Origin: Escherichia phage inny
DNA length: 64,000 nucleotides
Strand: one strand, 5' to 3'
Sequence record: MN850601.1
Positions 2,896-45,265 of this stretch are shown in pieces. The notes under the pieces were generated by a model. That model did not search any database. It was not told the origin of the DNA and was given only the letters and a program-made list of their open reading frames with translations. The first letter of the stretch is position 1. Every line of letters begins with the position of its first letter. The translations under genes were made by a program, and so were the position numbers.

Positions 2896-3069
2896 ATGTT
2901 CAAAGATACCAATTATAAATGTGTACATTGTGGTAAATCTTTTGGTGATCACAAAGCTAAAACATTCAATTGTCCACGAAAAGGGCGAGGTAGCTTTAAA
3001 GGTTTTAATCCATCCCACGTTTATTCTCCCAACTACGAGAAACCAGAAGAAGAAAAATTTGTAATCTGA
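2896..3069 (+). CDS. small zinc-ribbon protein (57 aa; CVHCG...NCPRKG)
   Basis: Hand-translated frame with AAAGGAGAG RBS 7 nt upstream of ATG; replaces ORF-track 2867-3064 in another frame lacking an RBS. Confidence 0.4.
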   Translation: MFKDTNYKCVHCGKSFGDHKAKTFNCPRKGRGSFKGFNPSHVYSPNYEKPEEEKFVI

Positions 3070-3078
3070 GGAGGCAAT

Positions 3079-3366
3079 ATGGAACTAGTGCAAGAAGTTT
3101 ATGAAAAACTGAAAGAAGAGAATCTTGATTGGCCTGAACATGCTCTTATTGTCGTCAAAGATACTAATGGTGAAATAAAATTCTCAAGTGTAAGTGAAGA
3201 TGATGTTGTTTTAAGTCCTACAGGATATTATATGAGAGGTGTTACGTGTCTATTCAACACCAAAGTGTATCCTGAAATTAAACTTAGTTACGGTGAACCT
3301 GATCATCCAGAAATCGTTACACGTAATGAATATGAAAATTATTATTTTGCTCGTGAAAGCAAATAA
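3079..3366 (+). CDS. hypothetical protein (95 aa)
   Basis: ORF track; GAGGAGG RBS upstream of ATG. Confidence 0.5.
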   Translation: MELVQEVYEKLKEENLDWPEHALIVVKDTNGEIKFSSVSEDDVVLSPTGYYMRGVTCLFNTKVYPEIKLSYGEPDHPEIVTRNEYENYYFARESK

Positions 3367-10847: not shown

Positions 10848-11420
10848 TTAATGTGTTAATGAAACTGCGTAGCTAAACACAGGTTCAGATATTACATCGG
10901 CTACAGTAATAAAAACGTCTTCGTCTTGAGTTGTTTCTACACGACATACAGTTACACCATTCACCACGAATTCAACGCAATGTGGAATATCTTCACAAAC
11001 GAAGGTAGTGTAAGTAACACCCAAAGCATCATACAAAGATTTAACAGTGTTTGCAAGTGCCGCAGTTTCTTCTTTTTCTGAGACAATGAATGCTGTAACA
11101 ACAAGATTGTTTGCATAGTTTAGACTGTCCTCTATAGCCAATGATTTACAAGGTAGTAATGCAAAATATTTACCTGGTTTAATCAGACCTGCTTCCCATT
11201 GATTCAAAATTGCCTGGGATGGTTTAGTAATATAAAACAGATTTTCACTTGGGTTATCAATATTACTTCTGGCGATACAACGTGAAGGATTATTAATATC
11301 AAATACATGATCAAAATCTACACAAACAGGTAAACTGAAAGGTGTGAATTTTTTACCTAATAATCCTATGGCTGATAATATGTTTGCTGTGCTTATCTTC
11401 CCGTTAAAAGCTAAACGCAT
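10848..11420 (-). CDS. hypothetical protein (190 aa)
   Basis: ORF track. Confidence 0.45.
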   Translation of the reverse strand: MRLAFNGKISTANILSAIGLLGKKFTPFSLPVCVDFDHVFDINNPSRCIARSNIDNPSENLFYITKPSQAILNQWEAGLIKPGKYFALLPCKSLAIEDSLNYANNLVVTAFIVSEKEETAALANTVKSLYDALGVTYTTFVCEDIPHCVEFVVNGVTVCRVETTQDEDVFITVADVISEPVFSYAVSLTH

Positions 11421-11431
11421 ATTTAACTCCT

Positions 11432-11635
11432 TTAACTAGCAACCGTAACTTCCGAACTTTCTTCTTTCGTACTGTCTACGATATGCCTGGTGGCAATATA
11501 CGAGACTTGCCAGTTACCATCTGGTGTAGTCTCAATAAGTACCCTATCTACTTCGAGAAAATGCAAAAATTCAACCATCGCTCGCTTCGATAGGAATTGT
11601 TTTTTAACAGTCTCCTCAAAAGATTGAACTGCCAT
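11432..11635 (-). CDS. hypothetical protein (67 aa)
   Basis: ORF track. Confidence 0.4.
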   Translation of the reverse strand: MAVQSFEETVKKQFLSKRAMVEFLHFLEVDRVLIETTPDGNWQVSYIATRHIVDSTKEESSEVTVAS

Positions 11636-43004: not shown

Positions 43005-43115
43005 ATGTCTACAGAAATTATTTTTGGCTTATCTGTTTTTATTGCTATTGTATCTTTTGTATGCGGTTATACACTAGGTTACAGATCAAGAAAAAATATT
43101 GTAAAAACTAGTTGA
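43005..43115 (+). CDS. small membrane peptide (36 aa)
   Basis: Hand-translated; AAGGAAACAG upstream; single TM-like segment IIFGLSVFIAIVSFVCGYTLGY. Confidence 0.3.
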   Translation: MSTEIIFGLSVFIAIVSFVCGYTLGYRSRKNIVKTS

Positions 43116-43141
43116 CAACATAGCTAGTTATTTGCTAAGAT
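43112..43141 (+). promoter_or_regulatory. sigma70-like promoter (TTGACA-N18-TAAGAT)
   Basis: Consensus hexamers upstream of 43172. Confidence 0.45.
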
Positions 43142-43171: not shown

Positions 43172-43438
43172 ATGACAGAAAAGACTTATGGTAAAGAATT
43201 GATTGAGAAGCACGTATTGATTGATAATAAAGGTGGAGCAATCTTTATTTTTGAACCTGAATCAGTTCTTACTGAAAACGAAAATGGTAGCGTTAGCCTT
43301 AAAACAGAAAGTTTGGTAATTGACTTCCTTGCTCTTCTGGATGAAATGGGGCTTCCTCACGAAGAAGAAGCAGCTATTGCTTTGATTGCAGTTCTTCTGG
43401 AGAAACGCGAAGCTGGTGAAATGACCCAGTATGCTTAA
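43172..43438 (+). CDS. hypothetical acidic protein (88 aa)
   Basis: ORF track; AAAGGAGAAAAC RBS. Confidence 0.45.
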   Translation: MTEKTYGKELIEKHVLIDNKGGAIFIFEPESVLTENENGSVSLKTESLVIDFLALLDEMGLPHEEEAAIALIAVLLEKREAGEMTQYA

Positions 43439-43445
43439 TATTCAA

Positions 43446-43521
43446 GGTTCCATAGCTCACTGACGAGAGCGCACACCTCATAAGTGTCGAGGGCAGGGAT
43501 TGTAACCCTGGGGAACCACCA
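43446..43521 (+). tRNA. tRNA-like gene, anticodon CAT (Met or Ile2), non-canonical T-loop ATTGTAA
   Basis: Hand fold: acceptor GGTTCC/GGAACC, D-arm GCTC...GAGC, anticodon loop CTCATAA, T-stem CAGGG/CCCTG, encoded ACCA end. Confidence 0.45.
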
Positions 43522-43552
43522 TTTAAAAGGAGGTGCTATGCATCTCCTATAT

Positions 43553-43638
43553 GCAAGTGTGGTGGAATTGGTGATACACATTGTGCTTAAAACGCAACGC
43601 TTAAATGATTGAGGGTTCGAATCCCTCCACTTGCACCA
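43553..43638 (+). tRNA. tRNA-Leu (anticodon TAA), type II
   Basis: Hand fold: acceptor GCAAGTG/CACTTGC, anticodon loop CTTAAAA, long variable arm, T-arm GAGGG-TTCGAAT-CCCTC, encoded CCA. Confidence 0.75.
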
Positions 43639-43640
43639 AC

Positions 43641-43746
43641 GCCTAGTAGGGTATTTGGTAATTCCGAGGCCATCAAAGCCTGAAAAATATGTTAGACCGT
43701 TTTGTCTAACTAAATACGAAATATGGTTCGATTCCATAACTAGGCT
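43641..43746 (+). tRNA. atypical long tRNA-like gene (106 nt); possible anticodon TCA (opal-reading) - uncertain
   Basis: Perfect acceptor GCCTAGT/ACTAGGC and T-arm TATGG-TTCGATT-CCATA; candidate anticodon loop CATCAAA; 7-bp hairpin in extended variable region; no encoded CCA. Confidence 0.3.
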
Positions 43747-43781
43747 CCCGATTTAAATAGTAATTTTTTAATAAAAATATC

Positions 43782-43810
43782 TTGACATTTACTTAGTTTT
43801 TTGTTATAGT
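43782..43810 (+). promoter_or_regulatory. sigma70-like promoter (TTGACA-N17-TATAGT)
   Basis: Near-consensus; transcript would start right at tRNA-like gene at 43822. Confidence 0.55.
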
Positions 43811-43821
43811 CATTATGAAAA

Positions 43822-43903
43822 CGGGGTGTATCTCACCTGACTTCTAATCAGGCGTTAACCGAGTAATTGGAGTATGCAGGTTCGAATCCTGTCACCCCGG
43901 CCA
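43822..43903 (+). tRNA. tRNA-Arg-like (anticodon TCT) with non-canonical architecture (no D-arm, 23-nt insert before T-arm)
   Basis: Perfect acceptor CGGGGTG/CACCCCG, anticodon arm CCTGA-CTTCTAA-TCAGG, T-arm GCAGG-TTCGAAT-CCTGT, encoded CCA; only 7 nt between acceptor and anticodon stem. Confidence 0.4.
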
Positions 43904-43920
43904 AAAAGTTTTAAAAACTA

Positions 43921-43949
43921 CTTGACAAGCAAGATAGTTTTATGTTAGA
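43921..43949 (+). promoter_or_regulatory. sigma70-like promoter (TTGACA-N17-TTAGAT)
   Basis: Consensus -35; upstream of tRNA-Ser. Confidence 0.45.
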
Positions 43950-43965
43950 TTTAAAGTATGGTAAC

Positions 43966-44055
43966 AGGAAGGTAGGGCGCAGCGGTGCGCAACCAGGTTT
44001 GAACCCTGGCCCATTGTAGCGATACGGTGATGGTTCGACTCCATTATCTTCCTCC
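43966..44055 (+). tRNA. tRNA-Ser (anticodon TGA), type II
   Basis: Hand fold: acceptor GGAAGGT/ATCTTCC, anticodon arm CCAGG-TTTGAAC-CCTGG, long variable arm, T-loop TTCGACT, encoded CCA. Confidence 0.65.
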
Positions 44056-44236
44056 AAATTCGCTTAGGAGCTTTATGAATTATAAAACTATTGGACAGAT
44101 TGTTACCGGAGTTAAGATTGTAAATAATAAAGTTGTTTATGAGTATTCTAATCTTCAACAATCTGAAGATGGTAAGAATATTCGTATGGTAAAAGCAGAA
44201 CAAAAAGATTCCGGTTGTTTTGAATAATTAAGAACG

Positions 44237-44321
44237 GTAGATTGGTGAAATGGTAGCCACAACAGTTTGCTAAACTGTCGTCGGAAACGGCGTGTAGGTT
44301 CAAGTCCTACATCTACCGCCA
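44237..44321 (+). tRNA. tRNA-Ser (anticodon GCT), type II
   Basis: Hand fold: acceptor GGTAGAT/ATCTACC, anticodon arm ACAGT-TTGCTAA-ACTGT, variable hairpin CGTCG-GAAA-CGGCG, T-arm GTAGG-TTCAAGT-CCTAC, CCA. Confidence 0.7.
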
Positions 44322-44491
44322 AGTTATCTTTAATGTAGCTTGTTGCTCTTAGTTGCTTGGTGTAACTTTTTGGAAGGATGGCTGCAACCATCTTACTTTA
44401 ATAGAGTAAACTTTCGGCAGATGGCCCCCACCATCTTACCGATACCTCATAGTTAGTGGTGCGAACACTGGCTATTTTAAAGATAATTTAT
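44322..44491 (+). other. unassigned structured spacer inside tRNA array (two GATGG-loop-CCATCTTAC hairpins)
   Basis: Repeated motif CCATCTTAC and hairpins resembling the 3' end of adjacent tRNA-Ser; no complete cloverleaf found by hand. Confidence 0.3.
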
Positions 44492-44567
44492 ACATCGTTA
44501 GCTTAGTTGGTAGAGCAAGGGGCTTTTAACTCCAAGGTCGAAGGTTCGAATCCTTCACGATGTACCA
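44492..44567 (+). tRNA. tRNA-Lys (anticodon TTT)
   Basis: Hand fold: acceptor ACATCGT/ACGATGT, D-arm GCTT-AGTTGGTA-GAGC, anticodon loop CTTTTAA, T-arm GAAGG-TTCGAAT-CCTTC, CCA. Confidence 0.7.
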
Positions 44568-44572
44568 AACAC

Positions 44573-44659
44573 GTAGGTATCGCATAGCGGCAATTGCTGG
44601 AGACTGTAAATCTCCTGCCCTTCGGGGCTTCGTTGGTTCGAGTCCAACTACCTGCACCA
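44573..44659 (+). tRNA. tRNA-Tyr (anticodon GTA), type II
   Basis: Hand fold: acceptor GTAGGTA/TACCTGC, anticodon arm GGAGA-CTGTAAA-TCTCC, variable hairpin, T-arm GTTGG-TTCGAGT-CCAAC, CCA. Confidence 0.7.
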
Positions 44660-44666
44660 AATTAAA

Positions 44667-44751
44667 GATGGATTGGCCTAGTGGTTGGGCGACGGACTGT
44701 TAATCCGTGAACGAAAGTTCTAGCAAGGTTCAAATCCTTGATCCATCGCCA
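44667..44751 (+). tRNA. tRNA with Asn-type anticodon arm (GTT) but long 15-nt variable arm
   Basis: Hand fold: acceptor GATGGAT/ATCCATC, anticodon arm ACGGA-CTGTTAA-TCCGT, variable hairpin GAAC-GAAA-GTTC, T-arm CAAGG-TTCAAAT-CCTTG, CCA. Confidence 0.6.
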
Positions 44752-44830
44752 AATAGTGCTTGTAGAGTTAATAGAAACCTCTAGAATTTTCTAGAATTGT
44801 AGGTATCAAATCCTACCAAGCAAATATTTT

Positions 44831-44905
44831 GCTCCTATCGTATAACGGCTATTACGGTTGCCTTGTAAGCAACTTATCAGGGTTCGAGTCCTTGTGGGAG
44901 CACCA
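44831..44905 (+). tRNA. tRNA-Thr (anticodon TGT)
   Basis: Hand fold: acceptor GCTCCTA/TGGGAGC, anticodon arm GTTGC-CTTGTAA-GCAAC, T-arm CAGGG-TTCGAGT-CCTTG, CCA. Confidence 0.7.
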
Positions 44906-44927
44906 ATTTAACTCTAAAGGAGTGTAT

Positions 44928-45251
44928 GTGACAGAAAAAGAGTTAGAGAAATATTTTAATATCAATGTTTTCGATGGTTTTGATGATATTGAAGATGTTG
45001 AAAGATATTATGAAGTAGAGTTAGATAAGGATAACATTGTAATTCTTTCTGCCACTTATGATTGTGCATATTATGAAGGCGAATCTCACGTTTATTTCTA
45101 TGATATGAAAACATCTTTGTTTTATGAAGTACACGCATATCATTGTTCTTGTTATGGCTTAGAAGGTCAGTGGGAACCTGAAGAAATAGGTGATTTGAGC
45201 TTTACGGTTGCATATCTAAACAGACGTGGTGCATCTACTATTTTAAAATAA
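44928..45251 (+). CDS. hypothetical protein embedded in tRNA array (about 107 aa)
   Basis: ORF track 44829-45251 trimmed to GTG after AAGGAG RBS to avoid overlap with tRNA-Thr; Cys/His/Tyr-rich. Confidence 0.45.
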   Translation: MTEKELEKYFNINVFDGFDDIEDVERYYEVELDKDNIVILSATYDCAYYEGESHVYFYDMKTSLFYEVHAYHCSCYGLEGQWEPEEIGDLSFTVAYLNRRGASTILK

Positions 45252-45265
45252 ATATTAAAAGCCTC

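What the first reader, a model, noticed from the sequence alone, without database searches (positions are those of the whole stretch)
43641..43746. 106-nt tRNA-like gene with possible UCA anticodon (opal-reading) - speculative
A perfect 7-bp acceptor pair (GCCTAGT/ACTAGGC) and canonical T-arm (TATGG-TTCGATT-CCATA) bracket a 4-bp hairpin with loop CATCAAA, where TCA would read UGA, and a long extra arm with a 7-bp stem. Length and long extra arm recall tRNA-Sec or suppressor tRNAs. Position 33 is A rather than U, so the anticodon assignment is tentative.
Basis: inference. Interest (0 to 1): 0.45.

Follow-up and report, generated by a model that had tools for sequence, protein, structure and literature searches.

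The report
Atypical phage tRNA with UCA anticodon
This is a real, conserved but dispensable transfer-RNA-like gene of E. coli phages, with an oversized extra arm and an anticodon that matches the stop codon UGA, yet nothing in the phage genomes shows that UGA is actually read through.

Summary
The described sequence is real and is a gene. Window 43641-43746 folds as a 7/5 cloverleaf. All four stems are backed by compensatory changes in 20 distinct homologues from at least six phage lineages (98% of pairs kept; shifted controls 48% or less).

It belongs to a phage-only family: none in 185,579 bacterial/archaeal genomes, not in Rfam, missed or mis-called by ARAGORN. The family has a 31-40-nt variable region, swapped A8·U14 and U15·A48 tertiary pairs, and a 4-bp anticodon stem closed by G·G.

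The anticodon loop differs between lineages on this one scaffold: YAUCAAA (UCA; this window), UUUUUAA (Lys-like, rV5), UUUAUAA (Ile-like) and a 6/8-nt CAUCCA loop. tRNA-Sec and ARAGORN's 'Leu-CAA with intron' reading both fail.

Opal reading remains unproven. TGA ends 16-25% of genes in UCA-type phages, no gene needs read-through, the candidate junctions have other explanations, and near-identical viable phages have deleted the gene.

Best reading: an accessory, probably weak UGA-decoding tRNA. A non-decoding tRNA mimic remains a serious rival.

The parts
43641..43647 (+). Acceptor stem, 5' strand (GCCUAGU). G1 lies 2 nt after the CCA of the preceding tRNA-Leu(UAA).
   Evidence: Pairs 1-7 with 66-72 are kept in 99.3% of cells, with 5 of 7 pairs changed on both sides.
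43648..43649 (+). Positions 8-9 (A8, G9). A8 is invariant in the family, where canonical tRNAs have U8.
   Evidence: A8 with U14 in 20/20 sequences.
43650..43665 (+). D arm: stem GGUA/UUCC (one U.U mismatch in this lineage) and loop UUUGGUAA carrying G18 G19.
   Evidence: D stem 97.5% paired, 3 of 4 pairs changed on both sides. G19-C56 in 19 sequences, with compensatory U19-A56 in VIK251.
43666..43666 (+). G at position 26/27. It faces G 43682, and this G.G is invariant in the family.
   Evidence: G.G in 20/20 sequences.
43667..43681 (+). Anticodon arm: 4-bp stem AGGC/GCCU and 7-nt loop CAUCAAA (C32 A33 U34 C35 A36 A37 A38). The anticodon-position triplet UCA is 43673-43675.
   Evidence: Stem 96.3% paired, 2 of 4 pairs changed on both sides. 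The loop is YAUCAAA in all UCA-type lineages. The rival intron-model stem is only 54.6% paired.
43682..43690 (+). Variable region, A-rich 5' linker (GAAAAAUAU). G-A/U-A-A-A is conserved across the family.
43691..43710 (+). Variable-region hairpin: 7-bp stem GUUAGAC/GUCUAAC, loop CGUUUU. The hairpin is present in all lineages but its sequence is lineage-specific.
   Evidence: The outer pairs covary among lineages that align (helix 4).
43711..43721 (+). Variable region, 3' linker (UAAAUACGAAA). AAUAC is invariant, and the last A is A48, which pairs with U15.
   Evidence: U15-A48 in 20/20.
43722..43738 (+). T arm: stem UAUGG/CCAUA and canonical loop UUCGAUU.
   Evidence: 100% paired. U54-A58 and G18-U55 in 20/20.
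43739..43746 (+). Acceptor stem, 3' strand (ACUAGGC), and discriminator U73.
   Evidence: U73 is found in all UCA-type and CAUCCA-type members, A73 in the UUU type.
43747..43749 (+). 3' trailer CCC where CCA is expected. Sister phages have UCA, other UCA-type and CAUCCA-type lineages encode CCA, and the 15 ARAGORN-called tRNAs of this cluster plus the D-arm-less Arg-like gene all encode CCA (the Trp-like gene at 46034-46114 ends in GCC).
43112..43141 (+). Sigma-70-like promoter (TTGACA-18-TAAGAT) that probably drives the unit small ORF (43172-43438) - tRNA-Met - tRNA-Leu - this gene.
   Evidence: consensus scan only. The next promoter-like site, 43782-43810, lies just downstream of the gene.

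Best explanation
Window 43641-43746 is a functional but accessory gene for a structurally atypical tRNA.

Shown:
- It belongs to a phage-only family with one copy per genome.
- The fold is a 7/5 cloverleaf that keeps the L-shape tertiary contacts in altered form (A8.U14, U15.A48, G18/G19 with the T loop).
- It has a 4-bp anticodon stem closed by G.G.
- A 31-40-nt variable region is built from two conserved A-rich linkers and a lineage-specific hairpin.

Inferred mechanism:
1. It is co-transcribed with tRNA-Met and tRNA-Leu.
2. RNase P cuts it 2 nt after the preceding CCA.
3. It is 3'-trimmed and given CCA by the host enzyme, because this lineage encodes CCC.
4. A host synthetase that tolerates the UCA anticodon charges it. 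U73, G1-C72, C2-G71 and C35 point to Gly or Cys. The long arm with U73 also allows Ser.
5. Its anticodon U34-C35-A36 then pairs with UGA in the ribosomal A site in competition with RF2.

Because U33 is replaced by a conserved A33 and the arm is non-canonical, decoding is expected to be weak. The likely result is low-level extension of UGA-terminated proteins, not recoding. The gene gives a conditional rather than an essential benefit.
For: A gene under selection:
- Covariation in all four stems.
- 1.9% variable sites against 9.4% in spacers.
- Present in Stephanstirmvirinae, three genera of Vequintavirinae, an N4-like Schitovirus and several uncultured lineages.
- The family covariance model gives 96.7 bits here and 32 bits or less for ordinary tRNAs, with one copy per genome.

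tRNA-like biogenesis:
- It always sits in a tRNA cluster, and most members start 2 nt after the CCA of the preceding tRNA.
- CCA is encoded after N73 in most lineages.

Anticodon:
- The contiguous stem covaries and the loop is Y32-A33-U34-C35-A36-A37-A38 in every UCA-type lineage.
- Hena1's copy was annotated tRNA-sup(tca).

Family members look like decoders:
- The rV5 type has a canonical loop UUUUUAA with U33 and A73, the LysRS identity set, and rV5 has no other tRNA-Lys.
- The Av-05 type has UUUAUAA.

Precedent:
- U73 plus a UCA anticodon occurs in the selC* tRNA-Cys species, and some CysRS forms charge tRNA-Cys(UCA) (PMC5389517).
Against: - No positive evidence of UGA decoding. TGA ends 16-25% of ORFs in UCA-type genomes.
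- Only two same-frame TGA junctions exist in VEcB. One is a stop overlapping a Shine-Dalgarno sequence that reads TAA-TAA in the sister genus. The other is polymerase followed by a homing HNH gene.
- The excess of nearby back-up stops after TGA is equally present in rV5, which has no UCA member.
- The gene is deleted in about 25 of 55 close relatives, verified in two.
- A33, the 4-bp stem and the 40-nt variable region are all unfavourable for ribosomal decoding.
- In Seunavirus and Mydovirus the orthologous gene has a 6- or 8-nt loop (CAUCCA) that cannot decode normally yet is equally conserved.
- This lineage's copy lacks an encoded CCA and has a U.U mismatch in its D stem.
Confidence: 0.45

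Rival explanations
1. It is a non-decoding tRNA mimic. The RNA is made and folds like a tRNA but acts off the ribosome. It could serve as a decoy, sponge or ligand for a tRNA-binding factor, such as a host anticodon nuclease, a modification enzyme or a synthetase. The anticodon-arm sequence would then be a recognition module that differs between phage lineages.
For: - The anticodon arm is more conserved than pairing alone requires: GGCYAUCAAAGCC is invariant while the other stems drift.
- The CAUCCA type has a 6/8-nt loop that is incompatible with normal decoding, yet it is conserved in two genera alongside a compensatory U19-A56 change.
- A33, the G.G closure and the giant variable region depart from decoding tRNAs.
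- One scaffold carries interchangeable anticodon arms.
- The gene is accessory, as anti-defence genes usually are.
- tRNA-targeting defences against these phage groups are documented (PMC11464382; PMC12916289).
Against: - No partner was identified.
- The PHROG-4806 'HisRS-like' protein does not co-occur with the family.
- The UUU and UAU types have fully canonical loops, and the UUU type has a discriminator that fits LysRS.
- The encoded CCA and the retained T-loop/D-loop contacts are what a charged, ribosome-bound tRNA needs.
Confidence: 0.3
2. In this particular (phi92-like) lineage the copy is a decaying remnant of a once-functional family member and now does nothing.
For: - CCC or UCA replaces CCA, while the 15 ARAGORN-called tRNAs of the cluster and the D-arm-less Arg-like gene all encode CCA.
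- U12.U23 mismatch in the D stem.
- A1.C72 in ESCO32.
- Clean deletions in many sister phages, and absence from phi92 itself.
Against: - 2/106 variable sites, like bona fide tRNAs and unlike spacers.
- Lineage-specific changes in the acceptor, T and anticodon stems are compensatory, so pairing was selected after the split.
- The anticodon loop is identical to that of distant lineages.
- The host CCA-adding enzyme can supply CCA (established knowledge).
Confidence: 0.12
3. It is a tRNA-Leu(CAA) carrying a short intron after position 37, as ARAGORN reports when introns are allowed.
For: ARAGORN -i calls Leu(caa) with a 24-nt intron here and an 11-nt intron in Hena1. This register would restore a U at position 33.
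Against: - The same option gives Met(cat), Gln(ttg) and Tyr(ata), each with a different intron, for orthologous members.
- The required anticodon stem pairs in only 54.6% of cells against 96.3% for the contiguous stem.
- Bacteria have no enzyme for such introns (established knowledge).
Confidence: 0.03
4. It is a selenocysteine tRNA.
For: UCA anticodon, a long extra arm, and tRNA-Sec as the best Rfam family.
Against: - 29.4 bits here and 36-41 bits in relatives, against a gathering score of 47.
- A 7/5 rather than 8/5 acceptor/T domain.
- A 4-bp D stem with an 8-nt loop.
- U73 rather than G73.
- No selA/selB-type gene is annotated in VEcB.
- The same scaffold carries UUU and UAU anticodons elsewhere.
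Confidence: 0.02

Closest known systems
Natural and phage-borne nonsense-suppressor tRNAs (opal suppressors; 'Sup' tRNAs of recoded phages)
   Same: The anticodon is complementary to a stop codon. The gene sits in a phage tRNA cluster, and some records annotate it tRNA-sup(tca)/tRNA-TERM.
   Different: The host genomes here are not recoded: TGA is a normal terminator. The gene is dispensable. The body is far from canonical, with A33, a 4-bp anticodon stem, a 40-nt variable region and A8.U14.
selC* tRNA-Cys(UCA) and allo-tRNAs (Mukai et al., PMC5389517)
   Same: tRNA-Sec-like hits found in searches, a long extra arm, a U73 discriminator, opal UCA or assorted anticodons on one unusual scaffold, and a proposed role as suppressors or regulatory RNAs.
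   Different: Those have 8/4 or 9/3 acceptor/T configurations and ordinary-length V-arms. This family is 7/5 with long single-stranded linkers around the hairpin. It is confined to lytic enterobacterial phages and was not found in any of 185,579 cellular genomes.
Class II tRNAs (Leu, Ser, Tyr)
   Same: A hairpin in the variable region and an overall cloverleaf.
   Different: The variable region is 31-40 nt, against roughly 10-24 nt, and has 7-11-nt unpaired linkers on both sides. The discriminator is U73 (A73 in the rV5 type). The anticodons are not Leu, Ser or Tyr.
Bacterial tRNA-Sec (Rfam RF01852)
   Same: UCA anticodon, the AAA that follows it, and a long extra arm.
   Different: It fails the gathering score and every structural hallmark (see the membership test).
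T4 stable RNAs C and D (species 1 and 2), recalled from memory and not tested here
   Same: Extra stable RNAs encoded within a phage tRNA cluster, with tRNA-like ends and no established function.
   Different: Those RNAs are not known to keep a full cloverleaf with an anticodon loop.

Membership tests
Canonical bacterial elongator tRNA (Rfam RF00005) | 7-bp acceptor stem plus 5-bp T stem with a UUCRAUU-type T loop | tested here: met
   (99.3% and 100% paired; T loop UUCGAUU; U54-A58 in 20/20).
Canonical bacterial elongator tRNA (Rfam RF00005) | D arm with G18 G19 contacting the T loop | tested here: met
   D stem covaries. G18-U55 in 20/20. G19-C56 in 19 sequences plus a compensatory U19-A56.
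Canonical bacterial elongator tRNA (Rfam RF00005) | U8-A14 and R15-Y48 tertiary pairs | tested here: not met
   A8-U14 and U15-A48 in 20/20. Both pairs are swapped, though still potentially pairing.
Canonical bacterial elongator tRNA (Rfam RF00005) | 5-bp anticodon stem, 7-nt loop with U33 | tested here: not met
   4 Watson-Crick pairs closed by an invariant G.G. The loop is 7 nt but has an invariant A33.
Canonical bacterial elongator tRNA (Rfam RF00005) | Variable region of 4-5 nt (class I) or about 10-24 nt (class II) | tested here: not met
   40 nt here, 31-40 nt across the family.
Canonical bacterial elongator tRNA (Rfam RF00005) | Reaches the family's gathering score / is called by tRNA finders | tested here: not met
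   No RF00005 hit at the gathering score. ARAGORN default finds nothing.
Canonical bacterial elongator tRNA (Rfam RF00005) | Aminoacylated and used on the ribosome | not testable with these tools
   Needs acid-gel northern, tRNA-seq and reporter assays.
tRNA-Sec (Rfam RF01852) | Gathering score of 47 bits | tested here: not met
   29.4 bits here; 36-41 bits in other lineages.
tRNA-Sec (Rfam RF01852) | 8/5 acceptor/T domain, 6-bp D stem with 4-nt loop, G73 | tested here: not met
   7/5, a 4-bp D stem with an 8-nt loop, and U73.
tRNA-Sec (Rfam RF01852) | UCA anticodon | tested here: met
Suppressor tRNA of a stop-codon-recoded phage | The cognate stop codon is used in frame within genes and is depleted as a terminator | tested here: not met
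   TGA accounts for 19/102, 35/224 and 24/96 stops. No gene is interrupted by TGA.
Suppressor tRNA of a stop-codon-recoded phage | Anticodon complementary to a stop codon | tested here: met
   UCA sits at positions 34-36 of the covariation-supported loop.
allo-tRNA / selC* tRNA (PMC5389517) | 12-bp acceptor branch in an 8/4 or 9/3 configuration | tested here: not met
   7/5 configuration.
New phage family defined here (covariance model R1) | Full-length match to the family model, well separated from ordinary tRNAs | tested here: met
   96.7 bits, E = 3e-20, against 32 bits or less for other tRNAs. The window sequence was part of the seed, so it matches partly by construction.

The most novel reading that the evidence does not exclude
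The family is a previously undescribed, phage-specific class of tRNA. Its re-wired core (A8.U14, U15.A48, G.G-closed 4-bp anticodon stem) and 31-40-nt variable domain would make it invisible or resistant to host tRNA-targeting enzymes, and its anticodon arm is swapped between lineages like a cassette. The UCA type, with its conserved A33, would then be a deliberately attenuated opal suppressor (or a UGA/RF2-directed regulator) carried as an accessory gene by non-recoded lytic coliphages.
Probability: 0.2. Interest if true: 0.75.

Novelty: new variant of a known kind. Interest (0 to 1): 0.5.

Why it matters
If the RNA is charged and decodes UGA, ordinary lytic coliphages that use the standard code would be carrying a natural, structurally orthogonal-looking opal suppressor. 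That raises the question of what low-level UGA read-through, or interference with RF2, does during infection.

The scaffold tolerates a 40-nt insertion, swapped tertiary pairs and several different anticodons, so it could interest genetic-code engineers.

If it does not decode, it is a new kind of tRNA mimic with exchangeable anticodon arms, which fits the current picture of an arms race around tRNA-cleaving defence systems.

In practical terms, the family is missed or mislabelled in well over a hundred deposited phage genomes (none, OTHER, ???, Lys, TERM), and a covariance model would fix that.

Tried and rejected
1. tRNA-Sec: fails the score and all structural hallmarks.
2. ARAGORN with introns allowed gives Leu(caa) here but Met, Gln and Tyr for orthologues. 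Its anticodon stem is only 54.6% paired across the family.
3. Genome recoding: TGA is a normal stop.
4. Read-through fusion at window 2896-3366 (57-aa ORF, TGA, 3 codons, 95-aa ORF). The TGA overlaps the Shine-Dalgarno sequence of the next gene, and the sister genus has TAA-TAA at the same place.
5. DNA polymerase-TGA-HNH in the same frame in VEcB. The polymerase is full length at 859 aa and the HNH gene looks like a free-standing homing gene. I treated this as coincidence and did not pursue it.
6. Excess of back-up stops within 6 codons after TGA (63% vs 42%, p = 0.03 in VEcB). The same trend appears in rV5, which has no UCA member (61% vs 47%), so it is not informative.
7. A dedicated synthetase. 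The 190-aa 'histidyl tRNA synthetase' (PHROG 4806) has no Pfam domain and no PDB sequence match, and its distribution differs from that of the RNA family.
8. Minus-strand intrinsic terminator formed by the variable hairpin plus a U-run. No convergent genes exist, so it is probably a by-product of the A-rich linker.
9. Pairing between the two variable-region linkers, or between the linkers and the D loop, is not conserved across lineages (by inspection).
10. A D-arm-anchored pattern scan of viral contigs produced only chance hits beyond the known members.
11. Literature searches (rV5 genome paper, virus-tRNA surveys, PARIS, retron Eco2, Schlafen) found no description of the family.

Full report
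WHERE WE ARE. The window comes from a phi92-like E. coli myovirus (Justusliebigvirus, Stephanstirmvirinae). A 3-kb stretch around the finding is 96-99% identical to many such phages, and the element itself is 100% identical to that of phage VEcB. The finding lies in a dense tRNA cluster at 43446-46196. ARAGORN tRNAs there and Rfam, but neither calls 43641-43746.

The minimum-energy fold recovers the acceptor stem, T arm and extra hairpin, and the centroid fold also gives the 4-bp anticodon hairpin (z = -3.0). With a lax threshold the best Rfam family is tRNA-Sec at 29.4 bits, well below its gathering score of 47.

IT IS A CONSERVED GENE WITH A COVARYING CLOVERLEAF.
- blastn with the element alone found 30 near-identical copies and four copies at about 70% identity. 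These were in Erwinia phages Hena1 and pEa_SNUABM_55 (Vequintavirinae, Henunavirus) and in the N4-like Salmonella phage UTK0002 (Schitoviridae).
- Pattern scans of viral and metagenomic contigs, and blastn with a relative, added uncultured lineages (L014-L016, L038-L052, L046), rV5-like phages, Av-05-like phages, Seunavirus and Mydovirus.
- On 20 distinct sequences, the cloverleaf I wrote down is kept in 98.4% of pair cells. Eleven pairs change on both sides, in all four stems. Sliding the 3' partners by 1-3 columns gives 48% or less pairing and at most two such pairs (16-sequence version).
- The 4-bp stem flanking the CAUCAAA loop covaries itself (A-U/G-C/G-U at 27-42; C-G/A-U at 31-39).
- Among four near-identical phi92-like genomes the element has 2 variable sites in 106. 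That is like the neighbouring tRNAs (0-4%, apart from the hypervariable second tRNA-Met at 13.9%) and unlike spacers and small ORFs (9.4%).
- A covariance model of the family scores the window copy at 96.7 bits and other members at 97-120 bits. Ordinary tRNAs score 32 bits or less. There is one copy per genome.
- Two scans of one genome from each of 185,579 bacterial and archaeal species found none.

ANATOMY OF THE FAMILY.
- A 7-bp acceptor stem and a 5-bp T stem with a canonical UUCGAUU loop.
- A 4-bp D stem with G18 G19.
- Invariant A8 with U14 and U15 with A48. Both pairs are swapped relative to the canonical U8-A14 and R15-Y48.
- G19-C56, with a compensatory U19-A56 in Klebsiella phage VIK251.
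- An anticodon stem of only four Watson-Crick pairs, closed by an invariant G.G.
- A variable region of 31-40 nt, made of an A-rich 5' linker (G-A/U-AAA...), a lineage-specific hairpin, and a 3' linker containing invariant AAUAC.
- Most members begin 2 nt after the CCA of the preceding tRNA (the rV5 type has no tRNA directly upstream), and most encode CCA after the discriminator.
- In this window the trailer is CCC (UCA in sister phages). The 15 ARAGORN-called tRNAs of the cluster and the D-arm-less Arg-like gene all encode CCA.

ONE SCAFFOLD, SEVERAL ANTICODON ARMS.

| Type | Anticodon stem and loop | Lineages | Discriminator |
|---|---|---|---|
| UCA (this window) | (A/G)GGC - YAUCAAA | phi92-like, Henunavirus, UTK0002, at least three uncultured lineages | U73 |
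| CAUCCA | AGGUC - CAUCCA - GACCU (6-nt loop, or 8-nt if the inner C-G opens) | Seunavirus, Mydovirus | U73 |
| UUU | AGGA - UUUUUAA (canonical U33) | rV5-like | A73 |
| UAU | AGGA - UUUAUAA | Av-05-like | U73 or C73 |

- In the UCA type, positions 33-38 (A-U-C-A-A-A) never vary, while position 32 is C or U.
- In the UUU type, the anticodon and A73 together form the LysRS identity set, and rV5 has no other tRNA-Lys.
- Deposited records label these genes inconsistently as nothing, tRNA-OTHER, tRNA-???(atcc), tRNA-Lys, or tRNA-TERM/sup(tca).
- No paper I could search describes the family.

WHICH ANTICODON? ARAGORN finds the gene only if introns are allowed. It then reads Leu(CAA) with a 24-nt intron, which would restore U33. 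The same option gives Met, Gln and Tyr with other introns for orthologues. The anticodon stem that reading needs pairs in only 54.6% of cells, against 96.3% for the contiguous stem. tRNA-Sec is excluded by the 7/5 configuration, the D arm, U73 and the score.

IS UGA READ?
- In the window, 102 long ORFs end in TAA 77, TGA 19 and TAG 6. No TGA-terminated ORF has an in-frame extension above 25 codons.
- In the whole VEcB genome the figures are 167, 35 and 22. Four TGA ORFs have extensions of 30 codons or more. Two of these just run out of frame through an overlapping gene, and two are same-frame neighbours.
- One of the same-frame pairs, window 2896-3366, is conserved in frame in the sister genus. 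There, however, the junction reads TAA-TAA-GGAGGT-CAT-ATG. It is therefore a stop overlapping a Shine-Dalgarno sequence, not a read-through site.
- UTK0002, which acquired the gene horizontally, has 24 TGA stops in 96 ORFs and no interrupted gene.
- Back-up stops within six codons are commoner after TGA in VEcB (63% vs 42%). rV5, which lacks a UCA member, shows the same trend (61% vs 47%).
- The flanking Met-Leu pair occurs at 99% identity or more in 55 records, but the element occurs in only about 30. In JLBYU50 and J-01 it is removed by a clean deletion of about 127 nt that leaves only ACCT. phi92 itself is not among the hits.
- The gene is therefore accessory, and nothing essential depends on UGA decoding.

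WHAT IT MOST LIKELY DOES.
- Shown: it is a selected, tRNA-shaped, phage-specific RNA gene placed for tRNA-type processing, with UCA at the anticodon position.
- Inferred: it is processed, receives CCA, is charged by a host synthetase and decodes UGA weakly.
  - U73 with G1-C72, C2-G71 and C35 resembles the Gly set.
  - U73 with C35-A36 resembles the Cys set. The selC* tRNA-Cys(UCA) species are a precedent (PMC5389517).
  - The long arm with U73 also allows Ser.
- A33 and the short stem should lower efficiency, as replacing U33 is known to reduce but not abolish tRNA function (from memory). I put this reading at 0.45.
- The main rival (0.3) is a non-decoding mimic. The strongest argument for it is the equally conserved CAUCCA type, whose loop cannot decode normally.
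- A decaying copy in this lineage (0.12) is suggested by the missing CCA, the U.U mismatch and frequent loss. The low substitution rate and the compensatory changes argue against it.

COMPARISON WITH KNOWN THINGS.
- It works like, and is sometimes annotated as, a suppressor tRNA, but it does not sit in a recoded genome.
- It resembles allo-tRNAs and selC* tRNAs in being an odd scaffold with assorted anticodons, including UCA with U73. It lacks their defining 8/4 or 9/3 branch.
- It is not tRNA-Sec.
- It fails several defining features of canonical tRNAs (U8, U33, a 5-bp anticodon stem, variable-region length, model score) while meeting the core ones.
- I therefore file it as a new variant of a known kind: a tRNA.

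SIDE OBSERVATIONS. The same cluster holds two more uncalled, conserved, odd tRNA-like genes:
- An Arg(UCU)-like gene without a D arm, behind its own strong promoter (43822-43903).
- A Trp(CCA)-like gene with an aberrant D arm and U73 (46034-46114).

Noticed in passing
window 43822-43903 (+): A tRNA-like gene with anticodon loop CUUCUAA (UCU, Arg/AGA), a 7-bp acceptor stem, a canonical T arm and an encoded CCA, but no D arm. A 7-nt linker replaces the D arm, and there is a 4-bp extra hairpin in the variable region. Rfam tRNA gives 38.6 bits with the D arm deleted, and ARAGORN misses it. It is invariant among 4 sister phages and sits behind a strong promoter-like site at 43782-43810 (TTGACA-17-TATAGT). 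Hena1 and rV5 carry a canonical tRNA-Arg(UCU) instead.
   Followed up: partly
window 46034-46114 (+): An uncalled tRNA-like gene between tRNA-Met and tRNA-Ile. Its acceptor is GCCGGGU/ACCUUGC (5' half like the family's), with U73, anticodon loop CUCCAAA (CCA, Trp-like) and an aberrant D arm (5-bp stem, 3-nt loop). Its only Rfam match is tRNA-Sec at 22 bits. It has 1/81 variable sites among sister phages and was found only in phi92-like loci.
   Followed up: partly
window 10848-11420 (-): A 190-aa protein labelled 'histidyl tRNA synthetase' or 'putative aminoacyl-tRNA synthetase' in many records, solely through PHROG 4806. It has no Pfam domain and no PDB sequence match. VEcB has a second copy next to a YqeY/GatB-like protein. 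It is restricted to Stephanstirmvirinae (132 records). Its fold and function are untested.
   Followed up: partly
window 45896-45974 (+): The second tRNA-Met(CAU) gene is hypervariable among four otherwise near-identical phages: 11 of 79 sites, against 0-4% for the other tRNAs.
   Followed up: no
window 2896-3366 (+): Two small ORFs in one frame, separated by TGA and three codons. The first is a 57-aa protein with a CxxC motif (possibly zinc-ribbon-like). The arrangement is conserved in frame in Phapecoctavirus, but there it has a TAA-TAA junction. It is a stop/Shine-Dalgarno overlap, not a read-through site.
   Followed up: yes
L036 45480-48683 (VEcB 95480-98683, outside the window): DNA polymerase I (859 aa) ends in TGA and is in the same frame as the downstream HNH endonuclease gene, nine codons later. 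UTK0002's polymerase also ends in TGA.
   Followed up: no
window 43691-43719 (-): Read on the minus strand, the variable-arm hairpin followed by AUAUUUUUC matches an intrinsic terminator. The equivalent U-run is present in all family members, but no convergent genes exist.
   Followed up: partly
L002 2563-2922 (VEcB) vs window 45556-45562: VEcB carries an HNH endonuclease gene inserted between tRNA-Gln and tRNA-Pro that is absent from the window. The tRNA cluster is a hotspot for homing-endonuclease insertions and small deletions.
   Followed up: no
L056 16779-17714 (rV5): rV5, whose family member has a Lys-type anticodon, also encodes a T4 RnlA-like RNA ligase. This is consistent with pressure from tRNA-Lys anticodon nucleases.
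   Followed up: no
L016 about 11440-11482: In the uncultured L014/L016 lineage, the family member is preceded by ...GGTTCGAGTCCTGTTACGCATCAACCAAC. This looks like the 3' half of another tRNA-like gene that ARAGORN does not call.
   Followed up: no
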